Part shown: positions 10,693 through 33,906 of the stretch, one piece after another
How positions within the stretch are numbered: position 1 is the first letter of the stretch
How the letters are laid out: each line of letters starts with the position of its first letter
Source of the DNA: an uncultured Lachnospiraceae bacterium
GTDB lineage: Bacteria; Bacillota; Clostridia; Lachnospirales; Lachnospiraceae
NCBI GenBank assembly: GCA_910578335.1
Contig: CAJTPU010000005.1
Coordinates: 68,595 to 132,594 of the forward strand
Direction of reading: 5' to 3'
DNA: 64,000 nt
Program-made: the position numbers and the translations under genes
The notes under the pieces: model-generated
What the model was told of the DNA's origin: nothing
The model's input: only the letters and a program-made list of their open reading frames with translations
Database searches by the model: none

Positions 10693-10991
10693 TCGCTCAA
10701 TGTCTGCTGCTCTGTCCTTCCATCCACCAGCTCAGCTTCATACGTCAGCTTGTAACCGTTCTGCTTATCCTCCGCTCTGTTCACCAGTTTCATGATGCCT
10801 CGTACCTCTTTGTTTTCTGGGTACTTGGTAAGCATTGCAGTACGCATTTTCACAACCTTCTCCTGCTCAATGTTATCCAGCAGAGTATTCACAAACGCTC
10901 TGTTCTGAGCAAGCATATAGCATAGCCGGCCTATGCGGTACTTCTCATGAGGCACCTTCATCAATTCCCACACAGCAAGGGAAAAAGTCAA
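10623..10991 (-). CDS. Hypothetical phage protein
   Basis: 122 aa ORF (TTG start). An alternative ATG at 10961 is possible. Lies just downstream of the reconstructed methyltransferase stop. Confidence 0.4.
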   Translation of the reverse strand: MTFSLAVWELMKVPHEKYRIGRLCYMLAQNRAFVNTLLDNIEQEKVVKMRTAMLTKYPENKEVRGIMKLVNRAEDKQNGYKLTYEAELVDGRTEQQTLSEWLRREKQWQKSRAKASKSKDVQ

Positions 10992-11023
10992 GGAATATCG
11001 GCACTTTCATCCACCACATTTCA

Positions 11024-11050
11024 TTGTCTGGTACAAATCTGGTACAGAAT
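11024..11050 (+). repeat. Left-end repeat cluster: TTGTCTGGTACAAATCTGGTACAGAAT (two TCTGGTAC copies)
   Basis: Matches 18617-18640 in direct orientation (12/12, then imperfect) and 18757-18767 in inverted orientation (11/11). Confidence 0.8.
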
Positions 11051-11396
11051 GGAGAAAAAAGCACCCGCCCGCCCCTGCCCCGCCAGAATGACCGTATCCG
11101 CCATTTCCCGGCACAGCCTATCATTTCCCCACTCAACCGCATAAAAAGGTTTCCTGCCCCCGTATTGGCTCCACAAGCATATTATGACTGCTGCCACTCG
11201 CATATGTGAATATCCGGCATAAAGTGAGACACCCAATCTTGCGTATGTGAGCCTGCTGCCAAAAGGGGAGATACCCCCTATTTGCGTGTGCGAACTCTCT
11301 TTTAATTGCGAAAAACAAGGCATACTGCATTTATTGACAGCACCGCGCACCGAAAATTCACCGCATTTGAAATTCTCGTATTTGTGAATTTAATTC

Positions 11397-11425
11397 TTGA
11401 CATAGCTCGCATTTGAGTTTATTAT
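11397..11425 (+). promoter_or_regulatory. Sigma-A-type promoter of the nested element's left operon, with CTCGCA in the spacer
   Basis: TTGACA (11397-11402), a 17-nt spacer tagCTCGCAtttgagtt, and TATTAT (11420-11425). Lies 50 nt upstream of the 11475 gene. Confidence 0.6.
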
Positions 11426-11474
11426 ATTCCAAAAGGCACATAATAAACCACAACAAACGAAAGGAAACAGGGAT

Positions 11475-11681
11475 ATGACAGAGAGAACGAATGTTACACA
11501 GGTCATGGAATATGGGCGACTTATGGGAATATCTGAGCTTATGCGCTATACCTCGCTCGGACGGAATACAGCTATGGACCTCGGAAAAAATGCGAGCGCC
11601 ATTGTACGCATAGGAAAGCGTGTTCTGTATGACCGCCAGAAAATCGACAGTTACATTGACAGCCAGGCACAGGACAGGTAA
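11475..11681 (+). CDS. Excisionase-family / MerR-like HTH DNA-binding protein
   Basis: 68 aa. The pattern GISELMRYTSLGRNTAMDL...RIGKRVLYDRQKID is typical of Xis-type HTH_17 proteins. Confidence 0.55.
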   Translation: MTERTNVTQVMEYGRLMGISELMRYTSLGRNTAMDLGKNASAIVRIGKRVLYDRQKIDSYIDSQAQDR

Positions 11682-11708
11682 TGTGCTTTGGCCACAAGGA
11701 GGGATAGC

Positions 11709-12002
11709 ATGGCACGGAAAGGAGGATATGGAAAAGTGGATTGTAAAATTGTCAGAGACAGCACCCTCACACCAGAGTCCAGGCTAATCTATACGATTCT
11801 TGCCACATACAGCGATAAGAACCGGGAAAGCTACCCCAGCATTGACCAGCTCATAAGAGATACGGGCATGAGCAAAGACCGGTTCTACAGGCACATGAAA
11901 CCTCTGGAAGAAAAGGGAATTGTCAAAAAGCATTATATCAAGACCGGCCCCGGCAATTTTGACAGAAAGCTCATTTATCAGCTCTGCGATTTTAAGGATT
12001 AA
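11709..12002 (+). CDS. Winged-helix DNA-binding protein (HTH_36-like; possible replication or regulatory protein)
   Basis: ATG 11709 behind AAGGAGG. The pattern LTPESRLIYTILATYSD...SYPSIDQLIRDTGMSKDRFYRHMKPLEEKGIV is typical of wHTH proteins. Confidence 0.5.
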   Translation: MARKGGYGKVDCKIVRDSTLTPESRLIYTILATYSDKNRESYPSIDQLIRDTGMSKDRFYRHMKPLEEKGIVKKHYIKTGPGNFDRKLIYQLCDFKD

Positions 12003-12110
12003 GAGCATCAGGAAAGCCACGGCATCTTGATTTCAGTATTCCCGGCTTTCCAGATTCCTCAAAATAAGGAATCCCGAAAGTTCGGAATCCCTGCCCTAAG
12101 GAAAGGAACT

Positions 12111-12177
12111 AATACCAGATTAAACAATACCAGGGTAAACATATTGCTTTGAAAAGATAAGCAATACCAGTATTAAA
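12111..12177 (+). repeat. Three 15-bp iterons AATACCAGnnnTAAAC (12111-12125, 12126-12140, 12163-12177)
   Basis: Read directly from the sequence. Two are tandem and the third is 22 bp away. They share TACCAG with the element-end motif. Confidence 0.8.
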
Positions 12178-12180
12178 CAC

Positions 12181-12218
12181 ATGAGTTTTATATTCTGAAA
12201 AACGAATATAAAACTCAT
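12181..12218. repeat. Perfect palindrome with a 15-bp stem (ATGAGTTTTATATTC / GAATATAAAACTCAT) and an 8-nt loop
   Basis: Read directly from the sequence. There is no U-tract on either strand, so it is not a typical terminator. Confidence 0.85.
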
Positions 12219-12333
12219 TCCCTCCGGTCTGACCGCCTACGTCCGAATAAGGACACCTTGATTTTTTGGAGAAAGAATCTCCTGTAATGCCACTCGGCAG
12301 CAAAGAGCATCTTGACCGGGAAGGAATGAGAGC

Positions 12334-13218
12334 ATGGAATGGGATAATGAATCAATCGTAAAACAGATACAGACCGGGCAAGGGAACCGGCAAGAACTTC
12401 TGGAAAGGCTCTGGACTGACAACCTCGGCCTGATCCGGAAAATCATACACAGGCTCACGGGCCTGCAATATGGGTACCCGCCAGACAGGGAAGATTTTGA
12501 GGATTTGGAACAACAGGCATTTATCGGCATCATGGATTCCGTACAGCACTATGACAGCACAAGGGGAGAAAAATTCTTTACGTTTGCGTATTACTACATC
12601 AAGCTCAGTGTTTACAGGTATTATGATTTCTCCGGGCAAACGCTCCGCATCCCGGCCTATATGAGAAAACGCATCCGGGATTTTATCGGGGAAAGGGACC
12701 AGCTCCGGGAAAAAGGGCTACCCGCCACGGATGAAATGATACAGGAACGGCTCGGCCTGACAGACAGAGCGCTCCGGGAAACGCTCCTGGCAATCCGGAA
12801 ATTGGAACTGCAAAGGCTTGACAGCTATCTGAATGAGAGCGACAGCGAGTCCGGCACTGTCTTGGATATGATTGCCAGCACAGAGAATACCAGCGACACA
12901 GCAACGGAAAGCGTCCATGACCGGGAACTCCATGAACTGCTACGCTCTGCCCTCCAGGAACTTCCGGAACCGGAAAGGAATGTCCTCATTGCCCGGCATT
13001 ACCAGAGACACAGCGCAAAGCATATCGCAAACGAAATGAACTGCACCGCCCAGAATGTATCAAGGCTTACAAAATCAGCGTACCAGAGAATCCGCACCGG
13101 GAAATATGGCAAGGAACTGTCAACATTCCTCCCGGAACGTGCCATCCACCGGGCAGAAAAGCGCATCCAGGACGAATTTAAGGAACTGAGCGAACAGGAA
13201 AGGGATTTATTGATATGA
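12334..13218 (+). CDS. Sigma-70-family RNA polymerase sigma factor (regions 2, 3 and 4 present)
   Basis: Region-2-like DLEQQAFIGIMDSVQHYD...FFTFAYYYIK. Region-4 HTH ELPEPERNVLIARHYQRHSAKHIANEMNCTAQNVSRLTKSAYQRIR. Confidence 0.75.
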   Translation: MEWDNESIVKQIQTGQGNRQELLERLWTDNLGLIRKIIHRLTGLQYGYPPDREDFEDLEQQAFIGIMDSVQHYDSTRGEKFFTFAYYYIKLSVYRYYDFSGQTLRIPAYMRKRIRDFIGERDQLREKGLPATDEMIQERLGLTDRALRETLLAIRKLELQRLDSYLNESDSESGTVLDMIASTENTSDTATESVHDRELHELLRSALQELPEPERNVLIARHYQRHSAKHIANEMNCTAQNVSRLTKSAYQRIRTGKYGKELSTFLPERAIHRAEKRIQDEFKELSEQERDLLI

Positions 13219-13709
13219 GCGACAGCACACCGGGAATTATAGATTTGAGCGACAAAGGGCCAGACCGCAGGGAATGGCAAGCCTTAGAGCGATATGTCCG
13301 GGAATATGCCCGCCAGACTGTAAGGGAAATCATGGCATCAGAGAGCGCCCCTTCAGCACCGCCCCAGGATACAGGAAAGGGCAATCTGAAAACGCAGCGT
13401 GAGCGTGAGAGGGAAAGGGAACTGATCCGGCAAGGACTGGAACGGTACCGCACAGAGCCACCGGACAGCAATATCCGGAAAGGGATTGACTGGCTCCTGC
13501 AAAGGCACGCCCGATGGGAAAGGTTCATGCAAAGCGATCCCCTCTTCCGGAAAAGGCATAATGCCCTGGTCCTGGAATACATCATCAGCCACCACATGAC
13601 ACGCACAGCGATAGAAAAACGGCTTGAAATCAGCGACAACGGATATAAGAATCAGCTTGAAAAGGGCATAAATGAGCTTGTACAGATACTTTTCGGCTAC
13701 CGAGAGTAA
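13215..13709 (+). CDS. Hypothetical protein with a sigma-region-4/ArpU-like C-terminal HTH (tentative)
   Basis: 164 aa, with a 4-nt overlap with the sigma gene. C-terminus MTRTAIEKRLEISDNGYKNQLEKGINELVQIL. Confidence 0.45.
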   Translation: MSDSTPGIIDLSDKGPDRREWQALERYVREYARQTVREIMASESAPSAPPQDTGKGNLKTQRERERERELIRQGLERYRTEPPDSNIRKGIDWLLQRHARWERFMQSDPLFRKRHNALVLEYIISHHMTRTAIEKRLEISDNGYKNQLEKGINELVQILFGYRE

Positions 13710-13798
13710 GCCCCAGGACACAGGAAAGCCCCTCTATGACAGCCCCAGAACATCAGAAAATACGGCATCCCGCCCTCACAGGCACAGGCTCCGGCCTG

Positions 13799-13821
13799 AT
13801 ATGTCACCCCTAAAAAAGAGC
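13799..13821 (+). repeat. 23-mer ATATGTCACCCCTAAAAAAGAGC, copy 1 (inverted partner at 20712-20734)
   Basis: 22/23 identity to the reverse complement of 20712-20734. Confidence 0.9.
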
Positions 13822-13844
13822 AAGGGTAAGGAAAGGATAAGGGA

Positions 13845-14138
13845 ATGAAACAAGAAAGCAAGCCCAGGTATTACATAGGCAAACGGCAATATGTTCCGGA
13901 AGAATCGGATTTGTTATGTGCATCATCAAGCGACACCGCCAGTTTCGGCAGCACAGCGACAAGAAAGCTCTACCGCACAGGGAAAGGCTCCTATTTCCTT
14001 GTCAGCGAGAGCCAGGGAATGGAAACAAGGGTACAGCTCATGGACGAGAAACAGGCATTTAATTTCATGGACGAACACACGGCCTGCATCGATACGGAAA
14101 CCTATGATCGGATATTCGGGGAACCGGACAAGGCATAG
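13845..14138 (+). CDS. Hypothetical protein
   Basis: 97 aa ORF with an AAGGAAAGGA RBS region. Confidence 0.5.
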   Translation: MKQESKPRYYIGKRQYVPEESDLLCASSSDTASFGSTATRKLYRTGKGSYFLVSESQGMETRVQLMDEKQAFNFMDEHTACIDTETYDRIFGEPDKA

Positions 14139-14527
14139 CACCCGCCCACGCATACCGCCTGTATAGCGTTTTCGGCGCCATACCTTAAAGAGCCATCACC
14201 CACACTGGCAATGAGAGCCATGTGCGCCTGTATCAAAGCGTATGAGCATGGTATAACATCCACTCCCGGCAGCAGGGAAAGGACAGAGTTAAAATGCCCC
14301 GTATTTTGGATTTTTGGATTTTGCCCTAAGATTCCCCACAAAGTCACATTAAAACGCTCCATGAGCCTGTATCGGCTCCACAGGCATAAAAAACCGCCCC
14401 GGCAAAACCATTTTAGGATTCACCGGAACGGATTGCCCCTTGACAGAGCGACTCATGACCTGCAGAAAAATATAAGCCCCGCCCTGGCAAATGTCAAGAG
14501 CGACAGCGAGAAAGGGGGAAAATAGAA

Positions 14528-14659
14528 ATGAGCATAGAGAGCATACTTGCGCCTGTTAATCTGGTACTGCTTATGGTATTACTGGCACTCATGATCCGAA
14601 ACGGCAGAAAAAAAGTGATTCTGCAGGACAGAAACCCGACACCAGATATTGAGACATAG
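14528..14659 (+). CDS. Small hydrophobic peptide (43 aa, MSIESILAPVNLVLLMVLLALMIRNGRKKVILQDRNPTPDIET)
   Basis: ATG 14528 behind AAAGGGGGAA. One predicted TM helix followed by a basic stretch. Below the ORF-track size cutoff. Confidence 0.45.
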   Translation: MSIESILAPVNLVLLMVLLALMIRNGRKKVILQDRNPTPDIET

Positions 14660-14824
14660 AGAAAGCCCGCCCCCGGCAATCAGCATACCGGGAACGGACC
14701 TTTAAGCGTATGGATATTGTATCAGCATCAGTTATGATCTGTCAACGGGAACCTGCACCGCCCCCCAGGACAGCACCGGGCAAAGAGCCATTGTCAGAAA
14801 TCATAGCGTGAGCATATATTTTAT

Positions 14825-14850
14825 ATCTCTAATCTCTATCTCTTATCTCT
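14825..14850 (+). repeat. ATCTCT hexamer microsatellite-like run (4 copies)
   Basis: Copies at 14825, 14832, 14838 and 14845. Confidence 0.7.
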
Positions 14851-14869
14851 GGTAAAGAAACCTACCAGA
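14848..14869. repeat. Palindromic site TCTGGTA-aagaaacc-TACCAGA (7-bp arms, 8-bp spacer)
   Basis: Read directly from the sequence. The half-site is the same as the element-end motif. Confidence 0.8.
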
Positions 14870-15370
14870 AATCTTACAGGAAACCTCACACATGGACCAG
14901 CAAGGACAGAGAACGGCATCCGGCCAGACTGCAGATTTTAAGTTTTGCCATCGGCTCCAGCAACGGTATGGATTACCAAACGGCAACAGCCAGGGAAAAG
15001 GGCATCCGGGAAATCAGCGCTCCGGAATCCTACAGCCCCGCCCTATGACCGGACAGGAAAAGCACAGCCCGCCCAGCATCCTGCTATGGAAATATCCGGC
15101 CAGACCGATACCGGACAGGAAAAAGCGTCTGACAGCCCCACAGACAGCCCAGGAACCGCCACCATCATAAATCTACACCGGGGAACAAATAACCGCCCCC
15201 TGCCACTGTAAACGAACCACAGACCAGCGACAGCAACCGGAACTATGCCCCATGCGCCAGACAGGAAAAGAAATCCCGAAAGGACAAGCGCCCCTCCGGG
15301 AAAGATAAGGTTTAGGATTGTGACCGGCCCGATTCTGCAGCAAAAGGGTAAAGGCCAACTCTGGCACAGG

Positions 15371-15832
15371 CTATTGATTCAGCAATCGGGCTTTCTGTGC
15401 GTTATATTCGTCCTCAGTTATGGCTCCGGCATCCAACAAGGATTTGAATTTCAGCAATTCATCAGCCACCGACTGCACCGGTACCGACTGTGCCACATTC
15501 TCCACCCCGCCCTGCTCCCGGACATTGGAAAAGGCAATCTTCCATTCCTCCAGCTTGGTAAAGAAAAACCGGTATTCGGCATCCTGCGTCCGGATCACCA
15601 GCACTTTGCTCATGAGCCTTTTGGTTTCCTCAATGTCCGTAATGTCAGCTATGGGAATGTCAAAGTCAAAATCGCCCTTCGTGAGATTTACGAGAGCGCC
15701 CATCACCGCAATTTTGGCAAAGGAATGTTTTGAGTAAATGAACCTCTGGTTTGTCAGCATAGCGTGACCGTTCTCTACGAAAGCCCCTTTGATACGGTTA
15801 CATACACCCTGTAATATGATTGTTTCCTGCAT
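15371..15832 (-). CDS. PH/GRAM-like domain protein with a C-terminal SHOCT domain
   Basis: 153 aa. The C-terminal ADELLKFKSLLDAGAITEDEYNAQKARLL matches the SHOCT pattern. Confidence 0.55.
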   Translation of the reverse strand: MQETIILQGVCNRIKGAFVENGHAMLTNQRFIYSKHSFAKIAVMGALVNLTKGDFDFDIPIADITDIEETKRLMSKVLVIRTQDAEYRFFFTKLEEWKIAFSNVREQGGVENVAQSVPVQSVADELLKFKSLLDAGAITEDEYNAQKARLLNQ

Positions 15833-15834
15833 TG

Positions 15835-16098
15835 TCAGCCCTCCCCCTCCGGCTCCATTTCGTCCGCATCCTGCCTTACATCATCAATGGTCAAAGGAAA
15901 CACAATACCGTCCTTTGTTTTGACCGTTACCTCGCACTCCAGGTAATCAAAAATTTTGAGTAAATCATCAATCGAATAGGAACCACGAAATATTTTGTTT
16001 CTGACAGACTGCACCGAAATACCGAGACAATCGGCTAAATCTGCGGGCTTATGCCCTGTAACACTTAATATAGATTTTAGTTTGTTGGAAAACGACAT
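15835..16098 (-). CDS. Xre-type HTH transcriptional regulator
   Basis: 87 aa with the HTH ADLADCLGISVQSVRNKIFRG. Lies 3 nt upstream of the PH/SHOCT gene. Confidence 0.6.
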   Translation of the reverse strand: MSFSNKLKSILSVTGHKPADLADCLGISVQSVRNKIFRGSYSIDDLLKIFDYLECEVTVKTKDGIVFPLTIDDVRQDADEMEPEGEG

Positions 16099-16135
16099 AA
16101 AATGTACCTCCTGTTTTGATTTGTGTTATAGTGTG

Positions 16136-16164
16136 ATTATACTCAAAATCCTATAAAATGTCAA
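16136..16164 (-). promoter_or_regulatory. Consensus sigma-A promoter for the HTH and PH/SHOCT operon
   Basis: On the - strand: TTGACA, 17 nt, TATAAT. Confidence 0.65.
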
Positions 16165-16205
16165 CTAAAAACAACAAAATTTAATCAAAAACATTATAAA
16201 AACTA

Positions 16206-16234
16206 TTGACATACCACACGTTTCATAGTATAAT
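16206..16234 (+). promoter_or_regulatory. Consensus sigma-A promoter for the integrase-side operon
   Basis: TTGACA (16206-16211), 17 nt, TATAAT (16229-16234). Followed by a leader of about 180 nt. Confidence 0.65.
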
Positions 16235-16418
16235 ATACTCATAAACAAACAACAAATACTCACAAACCTACAAAACAGCAAGCGAAGATAGACAAAAGTA
16301 CCGCAAGGGAAACTAAGAATATCACATAACACTGGGACCGGATAAGAAACTGAGAGCGAGGGCAAGAGCCTAGAGATAAACTTAATGCCACCCAGGGCTT
16401 GCAAGAAAGGAAAAGCCA

Positions 16419-16643
16419 ATGTATAGAAATATCTGCATGTTAGCCAAAACAGAGAACGGAGAATTTAAGAACGTCCGAGCGCTTGTCAATGTGACAGAGT
16501 TTGAAAAATCAAAGTACACCAGCTTTTCCACTTTCGCCAGTGACTACGCAAAGGCAAACGGTTATCTGGAATGCACGGTAACAGGATTTGGGAAATGCCT
16601 CTCCGATACGGAAATCGGAAAGAGAAAAGTATATGCAATCTAA
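16419..16643 (+). CDS. Hypothetical protein
   Basis: 74 aa ORF with a GAAAGGAAAAG RBS region. Confidence 0.45.
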   Translation: MYRNICMLAKTENGEFKNVRALVNVTEFEKSKYTSFSTFASDYAKANGYLECTVTGFGKCLSDTEIGKRKVYAI

Positions 16644-16662
16644 GAAAGTGAGGGAATCAGCC

Positions 16663-16938
16663 ATGACAGAGAGACAGATTGAGAACAGGGTTAAGAAACT
16701 GAGAGAGATTGAGAGCCAGCGCAAGGCTCTGGAAGAAAAGGAAAAGGCTCTGAAGGAAGAAATCAAAAGGGATATGGAAAGCAAGGGCCTGGAAGAAATC
16801 CGGATAAAGAATTTCATTATCCGCTGGAAAGAGATCATCAGCAACACGCTTGACAGCAAGGCACTGAGAGCGACATTCCCGGATATCTGCGAACAATTCA
16901 CAAAACAGTCCGCAAGCAAACGGTTCACGATAGCATAG
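16663..16938 (+). CDS. Hypothetical coiled-coil protein
   Basis: ATG 16663 behind GAGGGAA. The longer track ORF (16588) overlaps the previous gene. Confidence 0.45.
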   Translation: MTERQIENRVKKLREIESQRKALEEKEKALKEEIKRDMESKGLEEIRIKNFIIRWKEIISNTLDSKALRATFPDICEQFTKQSASKRFTIA

Positions 16939-17045
16939 GCAAACGGCTCCGCCCGAAAGGGCGGGCCAGCACCCGGCACCGGGGGATTTGCCAGAGCGTG
17001 AGTCCTCCGCAGCGAAAGTATAGCGAGCAAAAGGAGGATTTCAGC

Positions 17046-17303
17046 ATGAGAAAGGCAATCAACGACACAGGGACAATCGAACAGCTCTTTGAGAGCTACA
17101 AGGCAAGGTACAACGAGGAAACGCCACTGAGTGAAGGACAGGACACGGCAATGAACGAACTGGAAAAGGCAACGCTTACCGGCACGGCATCCGGCCAGAC
17201 CGCATTTGACAAAGCGATAGCGTTATCCAGGGAATCCGAAAAGGCCGGCTTTATCCTCGGATTCAGAATGGCAATGAATTTAATGAGCGAGTGTCTGGGC
17301 TAA
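17046..17303 (+). CDS. Hypothetical protein
   Basis: ATG 17046 behind AAGGAGG. 85 aa. Confidence 0.45.
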   Translation: MRKAINDTGTIEQLFESYKARYNEETPLSEGQDTAMNELEKATLTGTASGQTAFDKAIALSRESEKAGFILGFRMAMNLMSECLG

Positions 17304-17334
17304 CAGCCCGGCACCGCCCGGAAAGGACAGGGCT

Positions 17335-18558
17335 ATGGCAGGGAAAAACAGAAAGGACCACCGGGGAAGAGTATTACCCCCGAATGTGAGCCAGAAATCA
17401 GATCAGCGCTATATCTGGAGGAAAATGATTGACGGGCATCAGTATGTGCTTACCGACAATGACCTGAACGAACTGAAAAAGAAAATCGTCCGCAAGGAAT
17501 CAGAGCTCCAGAACGGCATCTACAGCAACCCAACAAAGATAACGCTCAATGAATGGTTCTGCAAATGGATGGACTTATACAAGGGCAATCTGAAACTGAC
17601 AACCAGAGATCGGTACCAGAAGGAATGGGAATACTATGTACAGGACAGCCCGCTTGGGAAAATGCAGCTTTCCAAAATCAAGCGCATGCACATCATTGAG
17701 CTTTACAAGAAACTGAGCGAAGAAAACGGGCTTGCCACAGCCACGGTACATAATGTGCATATCATCATTTACGGCTCTCTTTCGGACGCTCAGAATGACG
17801 GACTGATAACGGAAAATCCTGCTATCAATGCGTTCCAGAAAATCGAGCACAAGGAACCTCAGCACCGCCAGGCATTGAGCGTCAGAGAACAGGAATTGTT
17901 TATTGACTTCCTCTCCAGCAATAAGAAATACAAGGTCTATCTGCCTATGTTCGCTTTCTTCCTGGGTACCGGCACCAGATTGGGAGAACTGACCGGGCTA
18001 ACCTGGAAAGACATTGATTTGAAAAGGAATGTCATAAGCATAAACCACATTATGAATTATTCCAGAGTGAACGGCAAAAGAGTGTTCCATGTCAGCACAC
18101 CGAAAACAAAAAGCGGAATTAGGGAAATCCCGATTCTCCCGGAACTGAAAAAGCAACTGCTACTGCAAAGGCAATATGATTTTATGACCGGCATACACGG
18201 AACGGCCACGATTGACGGATATACGGACTTTGTTTTCCACACTTCTGCAGGAACGCCCTATATGCAAACCGGACTAAATGCCATCATCACCAGGATTGTA
18301 AACGCCTACAACCGCCAGGAAACGGAACGGGCAAAGAGCGGGAAAAGGGAACCGGAATTACTCCCGGACTTCTCCCCGCACGTCCTCCGGCACACATTCT
18401 GTACCCGGTTCTGCGAGAATGAAAGCAATGTGAAAGTGATCCAGGCAATCATGGGCCACAAGGACATCAAGACCACCATGAATATCTATGCTCATGCCAC
18501 GGACGATAAGATACAGGAAACCATGAAAGACCTCAGCTCCAAAATCAAAATCTGTTAA
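17335..18558 (+). CDS. int: Tyrosine recombinase / integrase, Tn916 Int-like
   Basis: N-terminal arm-binding-like NRKDHRGRVLPPNVSQKSDQRYIWRK. Also TPKTKSGIREIPI, IDGYTDFVF and HVLRHTFCT...IMGHKDIKTTMNIYAHAT, giving the R-H-R-Y catalytic pattern. Confidence 0.85.
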   Translation: MAGKNRKDHRGRVLPPNVSQKSDQRYIWRKMIDGHQYVLTDNDLNELKKKIVRKESELQNGIYSNPTKITLNEWFCKWMDLYKGNLKLTTRDRYQKEWEYYVQDSPLGKMQLSKIKRMHIIELYKKLSEENGLATATVHNVHIIIYGSLSDAQNDGLITENPAINAFQKIEHKEPQHRQALSVREQELFIDFLSSNKKYKVYLPMFAFFLGTGTRLGELTGLTWKDIDLKRNVISINHIMNYSRVNGKRVFHVSTPKTKSGIREIPILPELKKQLLLQRQYDFMTGIHGTATIDGYTDFVFHTSAGTPYMQTGLNAIITRIVNAYNRQETERAKSGKREPELLPDFSPHVLRHTFCTRFCENESNVKVIQAIMGHKDIKTTMNIYAHATDDKIQETMKDLSSKIKIC

Positions 18559-18566
18559 AGCCAGAG

Positions 18567-19826
18567 TCAGCACCACCGCCATACAGGGCATTGGTACTGG
18601 CTCTTTTTGTGCAAATTCTGGTACAAATTCCGGTACGAATAAAGGATTGAAATAAACAAAGATAAAAGATAGACCATAAGGAAAGCCCTGTAAAATGCAC
18701 TATACGGAACGCAAAGGACAGGGATAAACCGTACATTTAGAAATTTCATCACGTACCAGACAAAGACGGAATCTGCTGCCATCTTGGATATACCGAATAC
18801 TCCGGCCACATATCCATCAATCAGCAACGCTCTGTTGTAGGTAGCTGAGGAACCGACAAAGTTATGTGTCCACAGTACACGGTAATACTGAGCCTGCGCC
18901 GCCTTAATCGGAATCACCTGCACTTTGCTGTCCTCTTTGATTTCATAGTCCCTCGGCAGCATACTGCAATCCAACGGCTCCAGTTTGCTTTCGGAAGGGC
19001 GCTTTATCTTCTTTCCATTGGCGAGTGCCGTTGCCTCTTCCTCTCGGTTCGTGGTGATGTATGCGTTCAAATCCGCCCTGGTGCCGGACCTGGCATATAT
19101 TGTATATCCTACTGCCTCGCCTACCCGCTTTTCCTGGTAACAGATAACCAGGGCCTTTGCCTCCATGCACATATCATAGAATTGCTGGTGCCCTGTCTCC
19201 GGATCGAACAGCTGATACTCCGGTTCCTTCCACGTCATTTTCCCCTGGGTGTCATAGAACTTCTCGTACCCAGAAAAGTAAGTCGGTGGATTGGCAATAA
19301 CCAGGGCATGGGGATCATCCAGAACCTCTTTCAAATGCACCCACATATCCAACGGCCTATAGCTCATACCGTGCAGAAGGTTCCGAATCACTTCTATCTG
19401 CCGGTTGATGCTCTCTATATGCTCCTGCTTTCTCAACCGCAAGTCCGTAAGCATCTGGTAGAAATAATCATTGCCTGCACTCTTTGATGTTCTGAGATAC
19501 AGCTGTGCATACAATGCTGTTGCCGGGTCAAGCAGTTCTTGATCGTCAAATCCTTGTGCATGTATTTCCAACGGTTCTAATGACTGCCCTGTAATGGCAT
19601 ACCCAAGCACCGTAGACATCATGTTTACATCACTGGTTTCGATTTGCTCTGGCTTGAACCCATTCTGTACTGCCAGGTTTGCCATAGCGAATGTACCCGC
19701 ACACGGCTCTACGAACCTGGTATATCCGGACTGCGCTGCCGTTTCAATCAGCTTCACAAGAAACTTCTGCTCTGAGGTGCCCAGGCACCCCAAAAACATT
19801 GCACCCGGATTCATGAAAAATGCCAT
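18567..19826 (-). CDS. N6-adenine DNA methyltransferase (orphan, D12/Dam-like motif order). The C-terminal 60 or so codons read into the nested element.
   Basis: Motif I FVEPCAGTF and motif IV ANPPTY. ATG 19826 behind GGAAGGAG. The tail from about 18742 downward is hydrophobic, low-complexity read-through. Confidence 0.7.
   Translation of the reverse strand: MAFFMNPGAMFLGCLGTSEQKFLVKLIETAAQSGYTRFVEPCAGTFAMANLAVQNGFKPEQIETSDVNMMSTVLGYAITGQSLEPLEIHAQGFDDQELLDPATALYAQLYLRTSKSAGNDYFYQMLTDLRLRKQEHIESINRQIEVIRNLLHGMSYRPLDMWVHLKEVLDDPHALVIANPPTYFSGYEKFYDTQGKMTWKEPEYQLFDPETGHQQFYDMCMEAKALVICYQEKRVGEAVGYTIYARSGTRADLNAYITTNREEEATALANGKKIKRPSESKLEPLDCSMLPRDYEIKEDSKVQVIPIKAAQAQYYRVLWTHNFVGSSATYNRALLIDGYVAGVFGISKMAADSVFVWYVMKFLNVRFIPVLCVPYSAFYRAFLMVYLLSLFISILYSYRNLYQNLHKKSQYQCPVWRWC
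18617..18640 (+). repeat. Right-arm repeat TCTGGTACAAATTCCGGTACGAAT (direct copy of 11027-11050)
   Basis: A 12-bp perfect match followed by an imperfect match. Candidate arm-type Int site or alternative att core. Confidence 0.75.
18743..18767 (+). repeat. Right junction: ATTTCAT (direct copy of 11018-11024) followed by GTACCAGACAA (inverted copy of 11024-11034)
   Basis: Read directly from the sequence. Confidence 0.75.
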
Positions 19827-20050
19827 TTGCCTGCCACTCCTTCCCTTGAATTGTGAAAACCATACAAAAAGCTGAGGTGGCTCCAGGTATAACCCCGGAG
19901 ATTTCTGATACCCACCCCAGCACATTGCACAAAATAAGGCACCGTACTCATTGAATACGATGCCGTTGTTGTTGGACCGGAATCCTGCAGTGAGCAGGAA
20001 CTCTCCCCTGGAAGGGGAACGTGATACTTTCACCAATTCCGGAAATTATG

Positions 20051-21420: not shown

Positions 21421-21449
21421 TTGACTTTCTCGCAAATGCGAGGTATAAT
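21421..21449 (+). promoter_or_regulatory. Orphan near-consensus sigma-A promoter antisense to the phage late genes, with a palindromic operator in the spacer
   Basis: TTGACT, a 17-nt spacer ttCTCGCAaaTGCGAGg, and TATAAT. Overlaps the ArpU-like gene's RBS region on the other strand. Confidence 0.55.
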
Positions 21450-21464
21450 CTTTTTAGGGTTTGA

Positions 21465-21494
21465 GTCGTCTCGCAAGGGGCGGCTTTTCTTTTT
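21465..21494 (+). terminator. Weak intrinsic-terminator-like hairpin with a U-tract downstream of the orphan promoter
   Basis: GUCGUC / GGCGGC stem (two G-U pairs), an 8-nt loop, then TTTTCTTTTT. It folds only on the + strand. Confidence 0.35.
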
Positions 21495-21750
21495 ACCTGC
21501 GCCGTGACTTGCAGGTGGCGAAGTGTGATATGTAGCCGATTCCTTCTGCCAGGTTACTGTCTACCCTATTGGCAGAAACAACTTCTCCGGCCTGGGTTAC
21601 GATCTTCTCTGTAGCCTTCTCCCCGGCCTCCGGCCTGCGGTAACTTACCATTTCTGGATTCACCGGCATATTCTTTCCTGCCTTTGTCTTAATCCACATG
21701 ACCTGTTTCTTACAATATGCACACGTTCCAAACGGATTACCTGACCTCAT
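21493..21750 (-). CDS. Hypothetical small Cys-containing phage protein
   Basis: 85 aa. CAYC...HFATC pattern. Confidence 0.45.
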   Translation of the reverse strand: MRSGNPFGTCAYCKKQVMWIKTKAGKNMPVNPEMVSYRRPEAGEKATEKIVTQAGEVVSANRVDSNLAEGIGYISHFATCKSRRR

Positions 21751-31131: not shown

Positions 31132-31626
31132 CTACACTCCTTTGATGTATTTCTCTCCAACAATTTTCATTTCACTAATGGTCTCTGCCATCTTATCCAG
31201 CCTCTCCAGGATTGCTTTCAGCCTGGGAACTTCATCATCGCTGATGATACCGTCCTCGGTTATATCAATCAGATCATCTTTCATGTGCTTTAGCTCTTCT
31301 TCGTTAAACCCTCTCAAAAGCCTCAGCGCAATGCCCTGTATACTTTTTTCTTCCGTAGCCAGTGGCAGAAAACCATGCACCGGGCACTCTCTCATGCAGT
31401 ATCCCGTAATCAACTCCGGGGAATTGTAAAGGTCGGCCATGAGAACCACTTTATCTACCGGAACAACTTTCGTATTTCCAAGCTCGTAATCTGCCAGCGT
31501 TGATACCGAAATTCCCAAAAGCTCTGCGGCTCCTTCACGGCTATATAGCCTCTCGTTGTATGCTGCTGCCTTTTTCCTCGCCTTAAAGTACACATTATTG
31601 TTCTCGTTTATAGGACCTTTTCCCAT
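31132..31626 (-). CDS. Xre-type HTH protein (Cro-side early regulator)
   Basis: HTH AAELLGISVSTLADYELGNTKV. Confidence 0.6.
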   Translation of the reverse strand: MGKGPINENNNVYFKARKKAAAYNERLYSREGAAELLGISVSTLADYELGNTKVVPVDKVVLMADLYNSPELITGYCMRECPVHGFLPLATEEKSIQGIALRLLRGFNEEELKHMKDDLIDITEDGIISDDEVPRLKAILERLDKMAETISEMKIVGEKYIKGV

Positions 31627-31636
31627 TTCATGTTAC

Positions 31637-32074
31637 CTACCCTTTCGCTATAATCTTATTATCACCAGAGGGTACAGCCGGTAAGGTGATGTTCAGCAGG
31701 CTTGCTACAGCATCCACGATTTCTTCATTCATCATCTTGCCGTTGATAACCAGTGACAGCCGATCCCTGGAGACATTCAGTTTCTCTGCCAGCTGATTGA
31801 CGCTCATTTTCTGTTTGACAAGCTCAATCTTCACACACTGACACCATTCATCTGATGGAGTATCAATTCGTTCCGGCAAACCCTCTGTGCCAAGCACCTT
31901 GTTAATCTTCTTTGCGATTGCCTGGTAGCTTGCGTTAGAATACCGCCCATTGATAACCGAGGAAACTGTCCCAACGCTGTAACCGATGCGCTCCGCCAGC
32001 TGCTTGAACGTCATATCTCTGTCGATCAAAGCCTTTCGGACATCCTTACTCCATTGTGATGTTTCCACTTTCAT
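31637..32074 (-). CDS. Tandem-HTH DNA-binding protein (first early gene, Cro/antirepressor-like)
   Basis: Two HTH units (FKQLAERIGYSVGTVSSVING; VNQLAEKLNVSRDRLSLVING). Confidence 0.55.
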   Translation of the reverse strand: MKVETSQWSKDVRKALIDRDMTFKQLAERIGYSVGTVSSVINGRYSNASYQAIAKKINKVLGTEGLPERIDTPSDEWCQCVKIELVKQKMSVNQLAEKLNVSRDRLSLVINGKMMNEEIVDAVASLLNITLPAVPSGDNKIIAKG

Positions 32075-32135
32075 TCACGTATCACTCCTTTCTCGCATTT
32101 GCTTGATATTTGTTATTTATTTTTGCGAATTTGCG

Positions 32136-32144
32136 TGCTATAAT
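32136..32144 (+). promoter_or_regulatory. Extended -10 element TGCTATAAT (candidate repressor-maintenance promoter)
   Basis: Matches TGnTATAAT. The -35 is poor. Flanked by TGCGAA/CTCGCA motifs. Confidence 0.35.
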
Positions 32145-32237
32145 AGAAGTAAATCTATTTACAGGCTCGCAAACGTGCATAGAAATACTCTTCGCTCTCA
32201 GCTCGCAACTTTGAATTGATTTGTATTTCATGTATAT

Positions 32238-32266
32238 ATTATACCACGTATCTGCGAGTTTGTAAA
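32238..32266 (-). promoter_or_regulatory. Prophage early (lytic) promoter with CTCGCA in the spacer
   Basis: On the - strand: TTTACA, a 17-nt spacer aaCTCGCAgatacgtgg, and TATAAT. Points into the 31637-32074 gene. Confidence 0.6.
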
Positions 32267-32312
32267 TGATTATATTCTCAAATGCGAATTTATTTTAGTG
32301 CGGAGGTATGAA

Positions 32313-32678
32313 ATGGAGATAATCGAAAGAATCTATCAACTGCTGGACGAGAAAGAGAAGCGGGCCTATGCCCTTTGCGAGAAATTGGACATCCGGACAT
32401 CTACAATGTCAACCTGGAAGGCTCGCACCAACGATCCGCCCGCCAAATACATGAAAACCATTGCTGACTTCCTTGGTGTATCACTGGACTATCTCATGAC
32501 CGGCCAGGAGGCACCAGTGCGCAAGACCACTACCACGGAAGAAGATGAACTGCTGGAACTGTTCCGTTCTCTTCCGGAACCAAAGAAATATGAATTTGTC
32601 GGGGAACTTAAAGGATTTCTGAAAGCCTATACGGAATCACAGAAATATCTTGACGAGGAAAAAAGATTATCAGTTTAG
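32313..32678 (+). CDS. CI-like Xre-family repressor
   Basis: ATG 32313 behind GGAGG. HTH LCEKLDIRTSTMSTWKARTN. Divergent from the early operon. Confidence 0.65.
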   Translation: MEIIERIYQLLDEKEKRAYALCEKLDIRTSTMSTWKARTNDPPAKYMKTIADFLGVSLDYLMTGQEAPVRKTTTTEEDELLELFRSLPEPKKYEFVGELKGFLKAYTESQKYLDEEKRLSV

Positions 32679-32724: not shown

Positions 32725-33042
32725 ATGCCAAATGCCGCTCAATACTTCCAGCTGGCACGGACTGAGGAAAGAGCCGGGAATGAGTGCGCTGCCTTACTTC
32801 TATATCTCTCTTCTTTCTGTGACAGCTTTAATTCCAGCACCAGAGATTACCCATACGGAGCTGTTGCCAAAATCCGGAGTCTGCAGAACCGGCTTTCACT
32901 TTCCAATCTGCAGCTCATGGAGCTGGTACACTCTTATGGCCCTCTTACGGATGCTGAGTGCCAGGAACTTTTGTGCTATTCTATCCATGGCTGTCTGTCC
33001 GGAATCAATACCACTCTTTCCGGCTGTGCCTATGGATACTAA
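32725..33042 (+). CDS. Hypothetical protein
   Basis: ATG 32725 behind AGGAGG. 105 aa. Confidence 0.45.
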   Translation: MPNAAQYFQLARTEERAGNECAALLLYLSSFCDSFNSSTRDYPYGAVAKIRSLQNRLSLSNLQLMELVHSYGPLTDAECQELLCYSIHGCLSGINTTLSGCAYGY

Positions 33043-33358
33043 AAAATTCTCGGAACGTCTGTCCCACTGCATGAAACAATGCAAAGTAAACGGCGCTGAA
33101 TTGTCAGCATTATCTGGGGTAACTGCGGCCACAATCTCCCGATACCTTAATGGCCTACGGACACCCACAGTCGAAAACATCATCCTGCTTGCAAAGGCTC
33201 TCGATGTCTCTGTGGATTACCTTTTAGGCTTGCATGATGTCCCAGATGATAAAACCCTCACCGCTGCCTATTCAACCGCATCCAGCGCTGATAAGCGTGT
33301 GATTTGGACGCTCCTGGAAAGATATGGAGGTAAACATGGAACAACAACTGACAGGTAA
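33032..33358 (+). CDS. Xre-type HTH protein
   Basis: Internal ATG 33032 of the 208-aa track ORF. HTH LSALSGVTAATISRYLNGLRTP. Confidence 0.55.
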   Translation: MDTKKFSERLSHCMKQCKVNGAELSALSGVTAATISRYLNGLRTPTVENIILLAKALDVSVDYLLGLHDVPDDKTLTAAYSTASSADKRVIWTLLERYGGKHGTTTDR

Positions 33359-33906
33359 CGAGGAATTTACCCTACACGGTTCTAGTGCTGGTATATCCGT
33401 TAAGGACTTCTGGAGCTGGGCATATTCTGACCTGCTCAACAATACCCAGCGTGGGGTAATGGCAGAATTTCTCGTTTATTCATCACTCAAATCGGAGTAC
33501 CCCCCGCACGCAAATGCGAGTGAATTGGCTCCCATTTGACGTTACAAGCCCCTCCGGGAGACGCATCGAGGTAAAATCTGCCGCTTACCTGCAATCCTGG
33601 ACTACGGACTTTCCAGCTCAGATACAATACGACATTGCGCCTAAGCTGGCCTGGGATGGAAAGAGCTATGCTACAGAGGCAAAACGCAACTGCGACCTAT
33701 TTGTATTCTGCCTTTACACTGCCCTTACCCGTGACAAATCCATCCTCGATCTGGATTATTGGGAGTTTTACGTGCTGCCCACCTCTGTCCTTAATGACAA
33801 GATTCCCAACCAGAAAACCATCTCTTTATCTTCTCTCCTTAAATTGGAACCGATAAAGACGGACTATGCCGGACTCGGCTCAGCAATCGAGTCAATCAAA
33901 CTGTAA
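33336..33906 (+). pseudogene. PD-(D/E)xK nuclease-fold protein, split by a frameshift in a C6 run (33500-33505)
   Basis: Two overlapping ORFs (33324-33539 and 33514-33906). Removing one C joins ...AEFLVYSSLKSEYP to RTQMRVNWLPFDVTSPSGRRIEVKSAAYLQSW, which carries the D...EVK motif. Confidence 0.6.

What the first reader, a model, noticed from the sequence alone, without database searches (positions are those of the whole stretch)
11361..11425. The nested element's main promoter carries the same operator-like motif, in the same position, as the prophage early promoter
Three near-consensus promoters share CTCGCA starting 2-3 nt after the -35 hexamer. The nested element has TTGACA-tagCTCGCAtttgagtt-TATTAT (11397-11425, + strand). 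The prophage early promoter has TTTACA-aaCTCGCAgatacgtgg-TATAAT (32238-32266, - strand). An orphan promoter has TTGACT-ttCTCGCAaaTGCGAGg-TATAAT (21421-21449, + strand). A related CGCATTTGA copy lies at 11361-11369. The immunity region holds six further CTCGCA/TGCGA(G/A) half-sites. A shared operator implies that the prophage repressor, or one of the Xre proteins, also silences the nested element. The element would then be derepressed together with the phage, which is the logic used by phage satellites. This is inference from motif position only.
Basis: inference. Interest (0 to 1): 0.7.

Follow-up and report, generated by a model that had tools for sequence, protein, structure and literature searches.

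The report
Phage-embedded element copies its phage's operators
A 7.8-kb mobile element sitting inside a gut-bacterium prophage has a main promoter laid out like the phage's own early promoter, with the same repressor-binding sites in the same places, so it probably reads the phage's on/off switch directly; protein binding has not been tested.

Summary
All three promoters exist as described. The shared CTCGCA is half of a 14-bp palindrome-like operator, CTCGCA-WW-TGCGAG.

A scoring matrix built only from phage sites finds three further strong hits in the 64-kb window. All three lie in the element's 230-bp control region (11197, 11375, 11406).

The element promoter has the same layout as the phage early promoter: a 14-bp operator, 8 bp, the -35 hexamer, 2-3 bp, a second 14-bp operator, then the -10 hexamer. 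Both layouts are conserved, in element relatives with 66-98% identical sigma protein and in 52 phages whose CI repressor is 54-93% identical.

The element is truly mobile. It spans 10964-18744 with a 7-bp TTCATCA duplication. An otherwise 99.6-99.8% identical phage has the site empty, and public runs contain the circular form. Relatives insert in the early operon of phages of the same family.

The best binder candidate is the phage CI (32313-32678). Its recognition helix is invariant wherever the operator is kept. The element's own Xre protein is too variable to be the binder.

Binding, silencing and co-induction are inferred, not shown. I judge this a new variant of a known kind, the helper-embedded satellite-like element, that mimics its phage's operators. 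Interest is about 0.6.

The parts
10964..18744 (+). Nested mobile element, about 7.78 kb
   Evidence: Empty site in locus L011, an otherwise 99.6-99.8% identical phage. Circular junction 18744->10957 in public runs.
10957..10963 (.). Left copy of the 7-bp target duplication TTCATCA, inside the phage DAM-like/GNAT-phage-like gene
18745..18751 (.). Right copy of TTCATCA
11397..11425 (+). Element main promoter: TTGACA, 17-nt spacer, TATTAT
   Evidence: 11 of 12 consensus matches. Hexamers conserved in L017, L018, L019, L022 and L023.
11406..11419 (.). Core operator CTCGCATTTGAGTT, in the promoter spacer
   Evidence: 12.0 bits with the phage-only matrix. In relatives it reads CTCGCAAATGAG, CTCGTATTTGAG, CTCGCATATGCG, TTCGTATTTGAG and CTCGCAAATGCGAC.
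11375..11388 (.). Upstream operator CTCGTATTTGTGAA, 8 bp upstream of the -35 hexamer
   Evidence: 15.0 bits. Conserved in four of the five aligned relatives (L017, L018, L022, L023; degenerate in L019). Same position as phage site 32275-32288.
11197..11210 (.). Distal operator CTCGCATATGTGAA
   Evidence: 17.1 bits. Conserved in relatives.
11238..11312 (.). Weaker possible sites: 11238 CTTGCGTATGTGAG, 11281 TTTGCGTGTGCGAA, 11299 CTTTTAATTGCGAA
   Evidence: 6-10 bits. Partly conserved.
11475..14138 (+). Main operon driven by that promoter: 68-aa DUF6462 small HTH protein, HTH_36 protein, 294-aa sigma-70-like factor, then 164-aa and 97-aa unknown proteins
15835..16098 (-). Element Xre-type HTH protein (87 aa), variable between elements. 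A SHOCT-domain gene lies downstream at 15371-15832.
   Evidence: This is the highest-depth part of the element in runs X6 and X7.
16136..16234 (.). Divergent 12/12 consensus promoters, one for the Xre gene and one for the integrase-side operon. No CTCGCA-type site here.
17335..18558 (+). Element tyrosine integrase (407 aa)
32238..32266 (-). Phage early promoter: TTTACA, 17-nt spacer, TATAAT, with operator 32245-32258 in the spacer
   Evidence: Conserved in CI-family phages.
32275..32288 (.). Phage operator 8 bp upstream of the early -35 hexamer. On the - strand it reads TTCGCATTTGAGAA.
   Evidence: Shares the 11-mer TCGCATTTGAG with 11407-11417.
32092..32137 (.). Two more sites in the switch region: 32092 CTCGCATTTGCTTG and 32124 TGCGAATTTGCGTG. 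Single half-sites lie at 32166 and 32202.
32136..32144 (+). Conserved extended -10 element (TGcTATAAT). Likely the CI promoter, facing the early promoter.
   Evidence: Read from the sequence. TGnTATAAT is conserved in all the representative CI-family loci inspected. Its function is inferred.
32313..32678 (+). Phage CI-type repressor (121 aa), the candidate binder
   Evidence: Pfam PF07022, E = 4.6e-11. Helix TSTMSTWK invariant in the representative loci aligned; the scan that found the 52 loci used it as one of six search patterns.
21421..21495 (+). 'Orphan' promoter with the perfect palindrome at 21429-21442, followed directly by an intrinsic terminator (hairpin 21463-21486 plus T-run)
33507..33520 (.). 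Near-perfect site CACGCAAATGCGAG, inside a variably frameshifted gene

Best explanation
The 14-bp sites are operators of the resident phage's CI-type repressor (32313-32678).

The element's main promoter is a near-consensus sigma-70 promoter. One operator fills its spacer and a second sits 8 bp upstream of its -35 hexamer. This is the layout of the phage early promoter. More sites lie up to 200 bp upstream, as in the phage's own site array.

In a lysogen, CI bound at these sites would block RNA polymerase at both promoters. When CI is lost, because the phage is induced or the element enters a cell without the phage, both promoters would fire together. The element's main operon (small HTH protein, HTH_36 protein, sigma factor) would then turn on with the phage early genes.

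Shown: the sites, their positions, their conservation and the element's mobility. Inferred: that CI is the binder, that binding represses, and that the element is induced together with the phage.
For: 1. A matrix trained only on phage sites picks three strong sites in the element's control region and none elsewhere in the window. In five element relatives, hits of 9 bits or more are confined to the control region, with one exception in L023.
2. The two promoters share one layout. Element: operator, 8 bp, TTGACA, 3 bp, operator, TATTAT. Phage: operator, 8 bp, TTTACA, 2 bp, operator, 1 bp, TATAAT.
3. In relatives, the operator arms stay the same while the central two bases and the flanking DNA change.
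4. Across the 11 representative loci aligned, out of 52 phage loci with CI 54-93% identical, the same operator layout persists and the CI helix TSTMSTWK is invariant. The second HTH gene is missing from the 57% group, and the double-HTH early protein falls to 38% identity there.
5. The same sites are present in a phage that lacks the element (L011), so the phage must supply their binder.
6. No element protein resembles any phage HTH protein.
7. A 17-nt spacer with near-consensus hexamers implies a strong promoter that needs a repressor. A site in the spacer occludes RNA polymerase (established knowledge).
Against: - No binding or expression data exist.
- The public RNA runs are metagenomic contigs. 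They show the circular element together with a related phage (about 84% identical) that is covered along its whole genome. This fits co-activity but cannot show repression.
- The right arm of the core operator is degenerate (TGAGTT instead of TGCGAG).
- The element's first gene encodes a small HTH protein that could autoregulate at the same sites.
- The early double-HTH protein (Cro-like by position) could bind the same sites and change the timing.
- The integrase-side operon has separate promoters without these sites, so derepression of the main promoter does not by itself explain excision.
Confidence: 0.58

Rival explanations
1. An element-encoded protein binds the sites. The candidates are the first-gene product (68-aa DUF6462/HTH_17-like) or the HTH_36 protein. 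The operon would autoregulate, and because the phage carries the same sites, the element could also act on the phage early and 'orphan' promoters to interfere with its helper. This could coexist with CI binding.
For: A small HTH protein as the first gene of an operon is a common autoregulator layout. DUF6462 is 72-97% identical among the elements that keep the sites. Relatives L021 and L028 have a DUF6462 homologue only 35-40% identical and lack the motif.
Against: The phage needs its own binder for the same sites, since they are present without the element. No element protein is similar to any phage protein. Two unrelated proteins evolving one specificity is less parsimonious.
Confidence: 0.2
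2. The sites are bound mainly by the phage's early double-HTH protein (31637-32074, Cro-like by position). The element promoter would then fire briefly on induction and be shut off along with the phage early promoter.
For: In lambda-type switches the lytic regulator shares operators with CI (established knowledge). The gene is the first one transcribed from the early promoter.
Against: This protein drops to 38% identity in phages that keep the operator layout, whereas the CI helix is invariant.
Confidence: 0.12
3. The similarity is a relic. The element once captured a piece of the phage switch region, and the sites no longer have a function.
For: Relatives insert about 640 bp downstream of the early promoter, so capture by recombination is plausible. 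The local alignment of 11370-11411 against 32291-32253 scores 31, against a null of 18.7 +/- 2.8.
Against: The homology is limited to the roughly 40-bp operator and promoter core. The sites are kept in relatives with 66-98% identical sigma protein, while neighbouring bases diverge.
Confidence: 0.06
4. The resemblance is chance or a composition effect.
For: The hexamer alone is not enriched in the window. The degenerate 14-mer search with up to 3 mismatches is only weakly above shuffles (14 found against 8.8 expected).
Against: Clustering, promoter position, conservation and the phage-only matrix result all argue against it.
Confidence: 0.02

Closest known systems
Helper-embedded PICIs (HE-PICI; Tommasini, Mageeney & Williams 2023, PMC10111431)
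   Same: A small integrase-bearing element without structural genes, inserted inside a gene of a prophage and interrupting it. It excises precisely. That paper also suspects the element senses induction through the helper's cI.
   Different: HE-PICIs are Gram-negative and belong to one integrase clade with AlpA. They target late genes and are co-oriented with them. Shared operators are not reported there. The element here is in Lachnospiraceae phages and has different genes (sigma factor, DUF6462, HTH_36). It targets a DAM-like/GNAT gene in antiparallel orientation, or an early HTH gene in parallel orientation.
SaPI/PICI induction through the Stl master repressor
   Same: The element is coupled to the helper phage's lytic cycle. 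Relative L021 has the PICI layout: integrase, divergent repressor, small HTH protein, small terminase.
   Different: In SaPIs the island's own repressor is removed by a helper protein (established knowledge). Here the main promoter has no divergent repressor gene and carries the phage's operators instead.
RS1 satellite and CTX phage of Vibrio cholerae (shared RstR operator; from my own knowledge, not checked here)
   Same: The satellite and its helper share one repressor specificity at their main promoters.
   Different: RS1 is a partial copy of the helper genome and carries its own rstR. Here the element is unrelated to the phage outside a roughly 40-bp core and has no CI homologue.
P2/186-type immunity switches with face-to-face promoters (PMC1904263, PMC2995052)
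   Same: A short HTH repressor without a protease domain (the Pfam family PF07022 is named for bacteriophage CI repressor HTH domains). A likely CI promoter faces the early promoter, with start sites about 80 bp apart.
   Different: The P2 C repressor binds direct repeats, whereas these sites are palindrome-like. The CI promoter here is inferred only from a conserved extended -10 element.

Membership tests
Operator set of the resident phage's CI-type repressor | Sequence matches a consensus derived from the phage's own switch-region sites | tested here: met
   Phage-only matrix: 11197 scores 17.1, 11375 scores 15.0 and 11406 scores 12.0 bits. No other untrained hit in 64 kb.
Operator set of the resident phage's CI-type repressor | Sites overlap the core promoter in the same register as at the phage early promoter | tested here: met
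   Operator, 8 bp, -35, 2-3 bp, operator, -10 at both promoters.
Operator set of the resident phage's CI-type repressor | Sites conserved in diverged relatives while flanking DNA changes | tested here: met
Operator set of the resident phage's CI-type repressor | Bound by the repressor, and promoter repressed by it | not testable with these tools
   Needs EMSA or footprinting and reporter assays.
Phage satellite (PICI-like or helper-embedded) | Integrase, defined ends, precise excision | tested here: met
   TTCATCA duplication, empty site in L011, circular junction in runs X1, X3 and X6.
Phage satellite (PICI-like or helper-embedded) | No virion structural genes | tested here: met
   Pfam and PHROGs scans of the element's ORFs found none.
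Phage satellite (PICI-like or helper-embedded) | Means of hijacking packaging (terS, cos or pac site, capsid remodelling) | tested here: inconclusive
   None found in the window's element. Relative L021 carries a small terminase (phrog_309, E = 7e-44), and L028 has a homologous stretch by tblastn.
Phage satellite (PICI-like or helper-embedded) | Helper-dependent induction and transfer in virions | not testable with these tools
   The circle co-occurs with a related phage in public runs, but packaging is not shown.
HE-PICI integrase clade with AlpA (PMC10111431) | Membership of that Gram-negative integrase clade, with a neighbouring alpA gene | not tested
   No phylogeny was run. The gene content differs and the host is a Firmicute.
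Tn916-type integrative or mobilizable element | Tn916-type integrase N-terminal domain plus relaxase or transfer genes | tested here: not met
   The Integrase_DNA hit is below threshold (19.3 bits against a cut-off of 27). No relaxase or transfer gene in any ORF.

The most novel reading that the evidence does not exclude
This would be a family of satellite-like elements living inside Lachnospiraceae phage genomes that has given up a master repressor at its main promoter. Instead it copies its helper's operator array. It would read the helper's lysis-lysogeny switch directly and turn on a sigma-factor operon at the same moment as the phage early genes. This 'operator mimicry' would be a third induction logic for phage parasites, alongside anti-repression (SaPI) and helper activators (P4, Gram-negative PICIs).
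Probability: 0.4. Interest if true: 0.75.

Novelty: new variant of a known kind. Interest (0 to 1): 0.6.

Why it matters
If the phage repressor really controls the element, this is a compact and testable example of a parasite of a virus wiring itself into its host virus's decision circuit by copying DNA sites rather than by encoding a sensor protein.

It would extend helper-embedded satellites from enterobacteria to abundant gut Firmicutes. It would give a simple sequence signature for pairing such elements with their helpers in metagenomes: the same operators in the helper's switch region and in the element's promoter. It would also explain how an element inserted antiparallel to phage transcription can still follow the phage's state.

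The sigma factor in the controlled operon suggests the element may in turn redirect transcription. That would be worth testing.

Tried and rejected
- Megablast of the phage region against GenBank phages and of the element against plasmids found no match.
- My first guess for the element ends, the CTGGTACAAAT repeats at 11029 and 18618, was wrong. The empty site puts the ends at 10964 and 18744. Those repeats may be integrase arm sites.
- The copy at 11362 (CGCATTTGA) is not conserved and does not score.
- RNA evidence for silencing did not work out. Runs found with the element hold the circle and a related phage, not a clean lysogen. Runs found with the immunity region have only scattered low coverage.
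- Rfam has no family for the 'orphan' short transcript or anything else in the phage or element.
- The PDB has no close relative of CI or of the DUF6462 protein.
- PADLOC found no convincing defence system in the element. The weak Csa3 and MzaA hits reflect generic HTH and sigma similarity.
- Locus L037 looked like recombination between two operator sites, but it is just a deletion fusing the start of the early gene to the middle of the 191-aa gene.
- An outward-facing promoter at 11210-11181 overlaps the distal operator, but its -10 hexamer is not conserved in relatives.
- A host global regulator such as LexA is unlikely. There are no strong sites in the 28 kb of host DNA in the window, and in L017 a degenerate 14-mer search (up to 3 mismatches) finds none in its host flank.

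Full report
**1. The observation**

- 11397-11425 (+): TTGACA tag CTCGCATTTGAGTT TATTAT.
- 32266-32238 (-): TTTACA aa CTCGCAGATACGTG g TATAAT.
- 21421-21449 (+): TTGACT tt CTCGCAAATGCGAG g TATAAT.

Each has a 17-nt spacer and matches 11 of 12 consensus positions. The hexamer CTCGCA/TGCGAG is not enriched in the window, with 24 copies. It is clustered in the phage switch region, at the 21.4-kb promoter and upstream of the element's first gene.

The functional unit is a 14-bp palindrome-like site, CTCGCA-WW-TGCGAG. It is perfect at 21429 and has one mismatch at 33507. The 10-mer CTCGCATTTG occurs four times, where my own estimate for chance is about 0.1. The 11-mer TCGCATTTGAG is shared by 11407-11417 and 32278-32288.

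**2. A test that avoids circular reasoning**

I built a weight matrix from 16 phage sites only, taken from the window and from related phages, and scanned the window. Eight positions score 12 bits or more, against 2.06 expected per 64 kb. Five of these are training sites. The other three are 11197 (17.1 bits), 11375 (15.0) and 11406 (12.0). All three lie in 230 bp of the element's control region, and none lies elsewhere, including 28 kb of host DNA. In five element relatives, hits of 9 bits or more are also confined to the control region, with one exception in L023.

**3. What the nested element is**

A phage that is 99.6-99.8% identical over the aligned flanks but lacks the element (L011) fixes the ends. 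The element spans 10964-18744 and is flanked by a 7-bp duplication, TTCATCA. It is inserted in a phage DAM-like/GNAT-phage-like gene that is intact (471 aa) in L011.

Its genes are:
- a 68-aa DUF6462 small HTH protein;
- an HTH_36 protein;
- a 294-aa sigma-70-like factor;
- several unknown proteins;
- a SHOCT-domain gene and an 87-aa Xre gene on the other strand, next to two divergent 12/12 consensus promoters;
- three small genes and a tyrosine integrase.

There are no structural, relaxase or defence genes. The identical sigma protein is indexed in 312 blocks of the assembly collection. All eight contexts shown have the same insertion, in related phages whose neighbouring early genes differ. 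The hosts are Acetatifactor and other Lachnospiraceae.

Close relatives (L017, L019, L020, L023, L026, L027) sit at a different site in phages of the same family. They lie inside the second early gene, about 640 bp downstream of the early promoter and co-directional with it. L022, from a Blautia MAG, is a circularly permuted 9.7-kb contig.

In public mouse-gut runs the window's element appears as a circle, with junction 18744->10957 and a 7-bp overlap. It is accompanied by a phage about 84% identical whose insertion site is empty in run X1. Other runs hold the integrated junction.

A more distant branch (L021, L028) differs. In L021 an integrase, a divergent 183-aa HTH repressor, a DUF6462-like gene and a small terminase (phrog_309, E = 7e-44) were confirmed; L028 shows homologous DUF6462-like and terminase-like stretches by tblastn. 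Neither has the CTCGCA motif.

**4. The operators are conserved in both partners**

In element relatives the spacer site reads CTCGCATTTGAG, CTCGCAAATGAG, CTCGTATTTGAG, CTCGCATATGCG, TTCGTATTTGAG and CTCGCAAATGCGAC. The arms are kept, while the central bases and flanks vary. The sites at 11375 and 11197 are kept too.

In the phage, the early-promoter spacer site and a second site 8 bp upstream of the -35 hexamer are kept in four close relatives. The 11 representative loci inspected, out of 52 IMG/VR loci whose CI is 54-93% identical, keep this layout.

The two promoters share one architecture.
- Element: operator, 8 bp, TTGACA, 3 bp, operator, TATTAT.
- Phage: operator, 8 bp, TTTACA, 2 bp, operator, 1 bp, TATAAT.

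DNA similarity between them is limited to this roughly 40-bp core (score 31 against a null of 18.7 +/- 2.8).

**5. Who binds**

This part is inference.
- The sites exist in a phage without the element, so the phage must encode their binder.
- The CI recognition helix TSTMSTWK is invariant in the representative CI-family loci aligned; it was also one of the six peptide patterns the scan used to find those loci.
- The second HTH gene downstream of CI is absent from the 57% group, and the double-HTH early protein falls to 38% identity there. The operator layout persists in both cases.
- The element's Xre protein is only 47-57% identical among elements that share the operators, and its own promoters lack the site.
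- No element protein resembles a phage HTH protein.

A site filling the 17-nt spacer of a near-consensus promoter is expected to repress. I therefore favour CI binding at both promoters, at confidence 0.58. Autoregulation by the element's first-gene product and binding by the Cro-like protein remain as rivals or additions.

**6. What is not shown**

Binding, silencing in lysogens and co-induction are not shown. The public RNA data are metagenomic contigs and cannot decide the matter. How derepression of the main operon would lead to excision is unknown, because the integrase-side operon has separate promoters.

**7. Comparison with known systems**

The closest concept is the helper-embedded PICI of enterobacteria (PMC10111431). 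It shares the nesting and the gene interruption but not the gene content, host or orientation, and that paper reports no shared operators. SaPI-type satellites use their own repressor. Literature searches found no report of a satellite copying its helper's operators. From my own knowledge, the RS1/CTX-phage pair is a partial precedent.

**Verdict**

I class this as a new variant of a known kind.

Noticed in passing
window 21421-21495 (+); L001-L006 near locus coordinates 19050-19230: The 'orphan' promoter is followed after about 8 nt by a strong intrinsic terminator (10-bp hairpin, -16 kcal/mol, then a T-run). This gives a transcript of about 40 nt that runs against the phage operon. It lies just upstream of the ribosome-binding site of a 191-aa gene (phrog_1558) whose C-terminus looks like an HTH or sigma region 4. 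The promoter, palindrome and terminator are conserved in related phages, with palindrome variants. It may act as a repressor-controlled roadblock or timer for a late activator.
   Followed up: partly
L017, L019, L020, L023, L026, L027 (window-equivalent position about 31433-31440): Close relatives of the element insert in a different phage gene, the second early HTH gene. They lie co-directional with the early promoter and about 640 bp downstream of it. This family therefore targets at least two sites in one phage family.
   Followed up: partly
window 10957-18751; runs X1, X3, X6 (circle); X15, X19 (integrated): The circular or tandem junction 18744->10957 is present in public mouse-gut runs. 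Alongside it is a phage about 84% identical whose insertion site is empty in run X1 (42,287-bp contig there). The runs labelled metatranscriptomic hold contigs of 42-55 kb, so they contain DNA or virion material.
   Followed up: partly
L022 (Blautia MAG, 9,681-bp contig): The contig is circularly permuted. It is an excised or plasmid-like form of a relative whose sigma protein is 66% identical, with a near-perfect palindrome (CTCGCAAATGCGAC) in its main promoter.
   Followed up: partly
L021 5713-9067; L028 8000-9600: A distant branch of the family. L021 has a PICI-like layout: integrase, divergent 183-aa HTH repressor, DUF6462-like gene and small terminase (phrog_309, E = 7e-44); L028 shows homologous DUF6462-like and terminase-like stretches. 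Neither has the CTCGCA operators.
   Followed up: partly
window 32136-32144 (+): A conserved extended -10 element (TGnTATAAT) points toward the CI gene from inside the early leader. This implies face-to-face CI and early promoters with start sites about 80 bp apart, as in P2/186-type switches.
   Followed up: partly
window 15835-16098 (-): The element's Xre protein is only 47-57% identical between elements that are otherwise 83-94% identical in DNA. This looks like diversification of an immunity-type regulator. Together with the SHOCT gene it is the most deeply covered part of the element in runs X6 and X7.
   Followed up: partly
window 33324-33906 (+): The gene between the second HTH gene and the phage integrase is split here into 71 aa and 130 aa. 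It is intact (191 aa, weak T4 endonuclease IV-like hit) in L011 and broken differently in other copies. It contains the near-perfect site at 33507.
   Followed up: partly
window 32732-33358 (+): The first 100 residues of the 208-aa ORF look non-protein-like. The real gene is probably about 108 aa, starting at the Met near 33032. That leaves about 350 nt unassigned after the CI gene.
   Followed up: no
window 19974-20043 (-): ARAGORN calls a tRNA-Gly(tcc) here, but Rfam's tRNA model does not reach threshold. The call overlaps the TTG-extended start of the DAM-like ORF.
   Followed up: partly
window 11125-11181 and 14332-14388: A 57-nt direct repeat (74% identical) occurs within the element, once just upstream of the distal operator and once in the middle of the element. 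Its function is unknown.
   Followed up: no
window 11028-11050 and 18617-18641: Repeated GGTACA(A)AT motifs lie near both ends of the element. They may be arm-type integrase binding sites.
   Followed up: no
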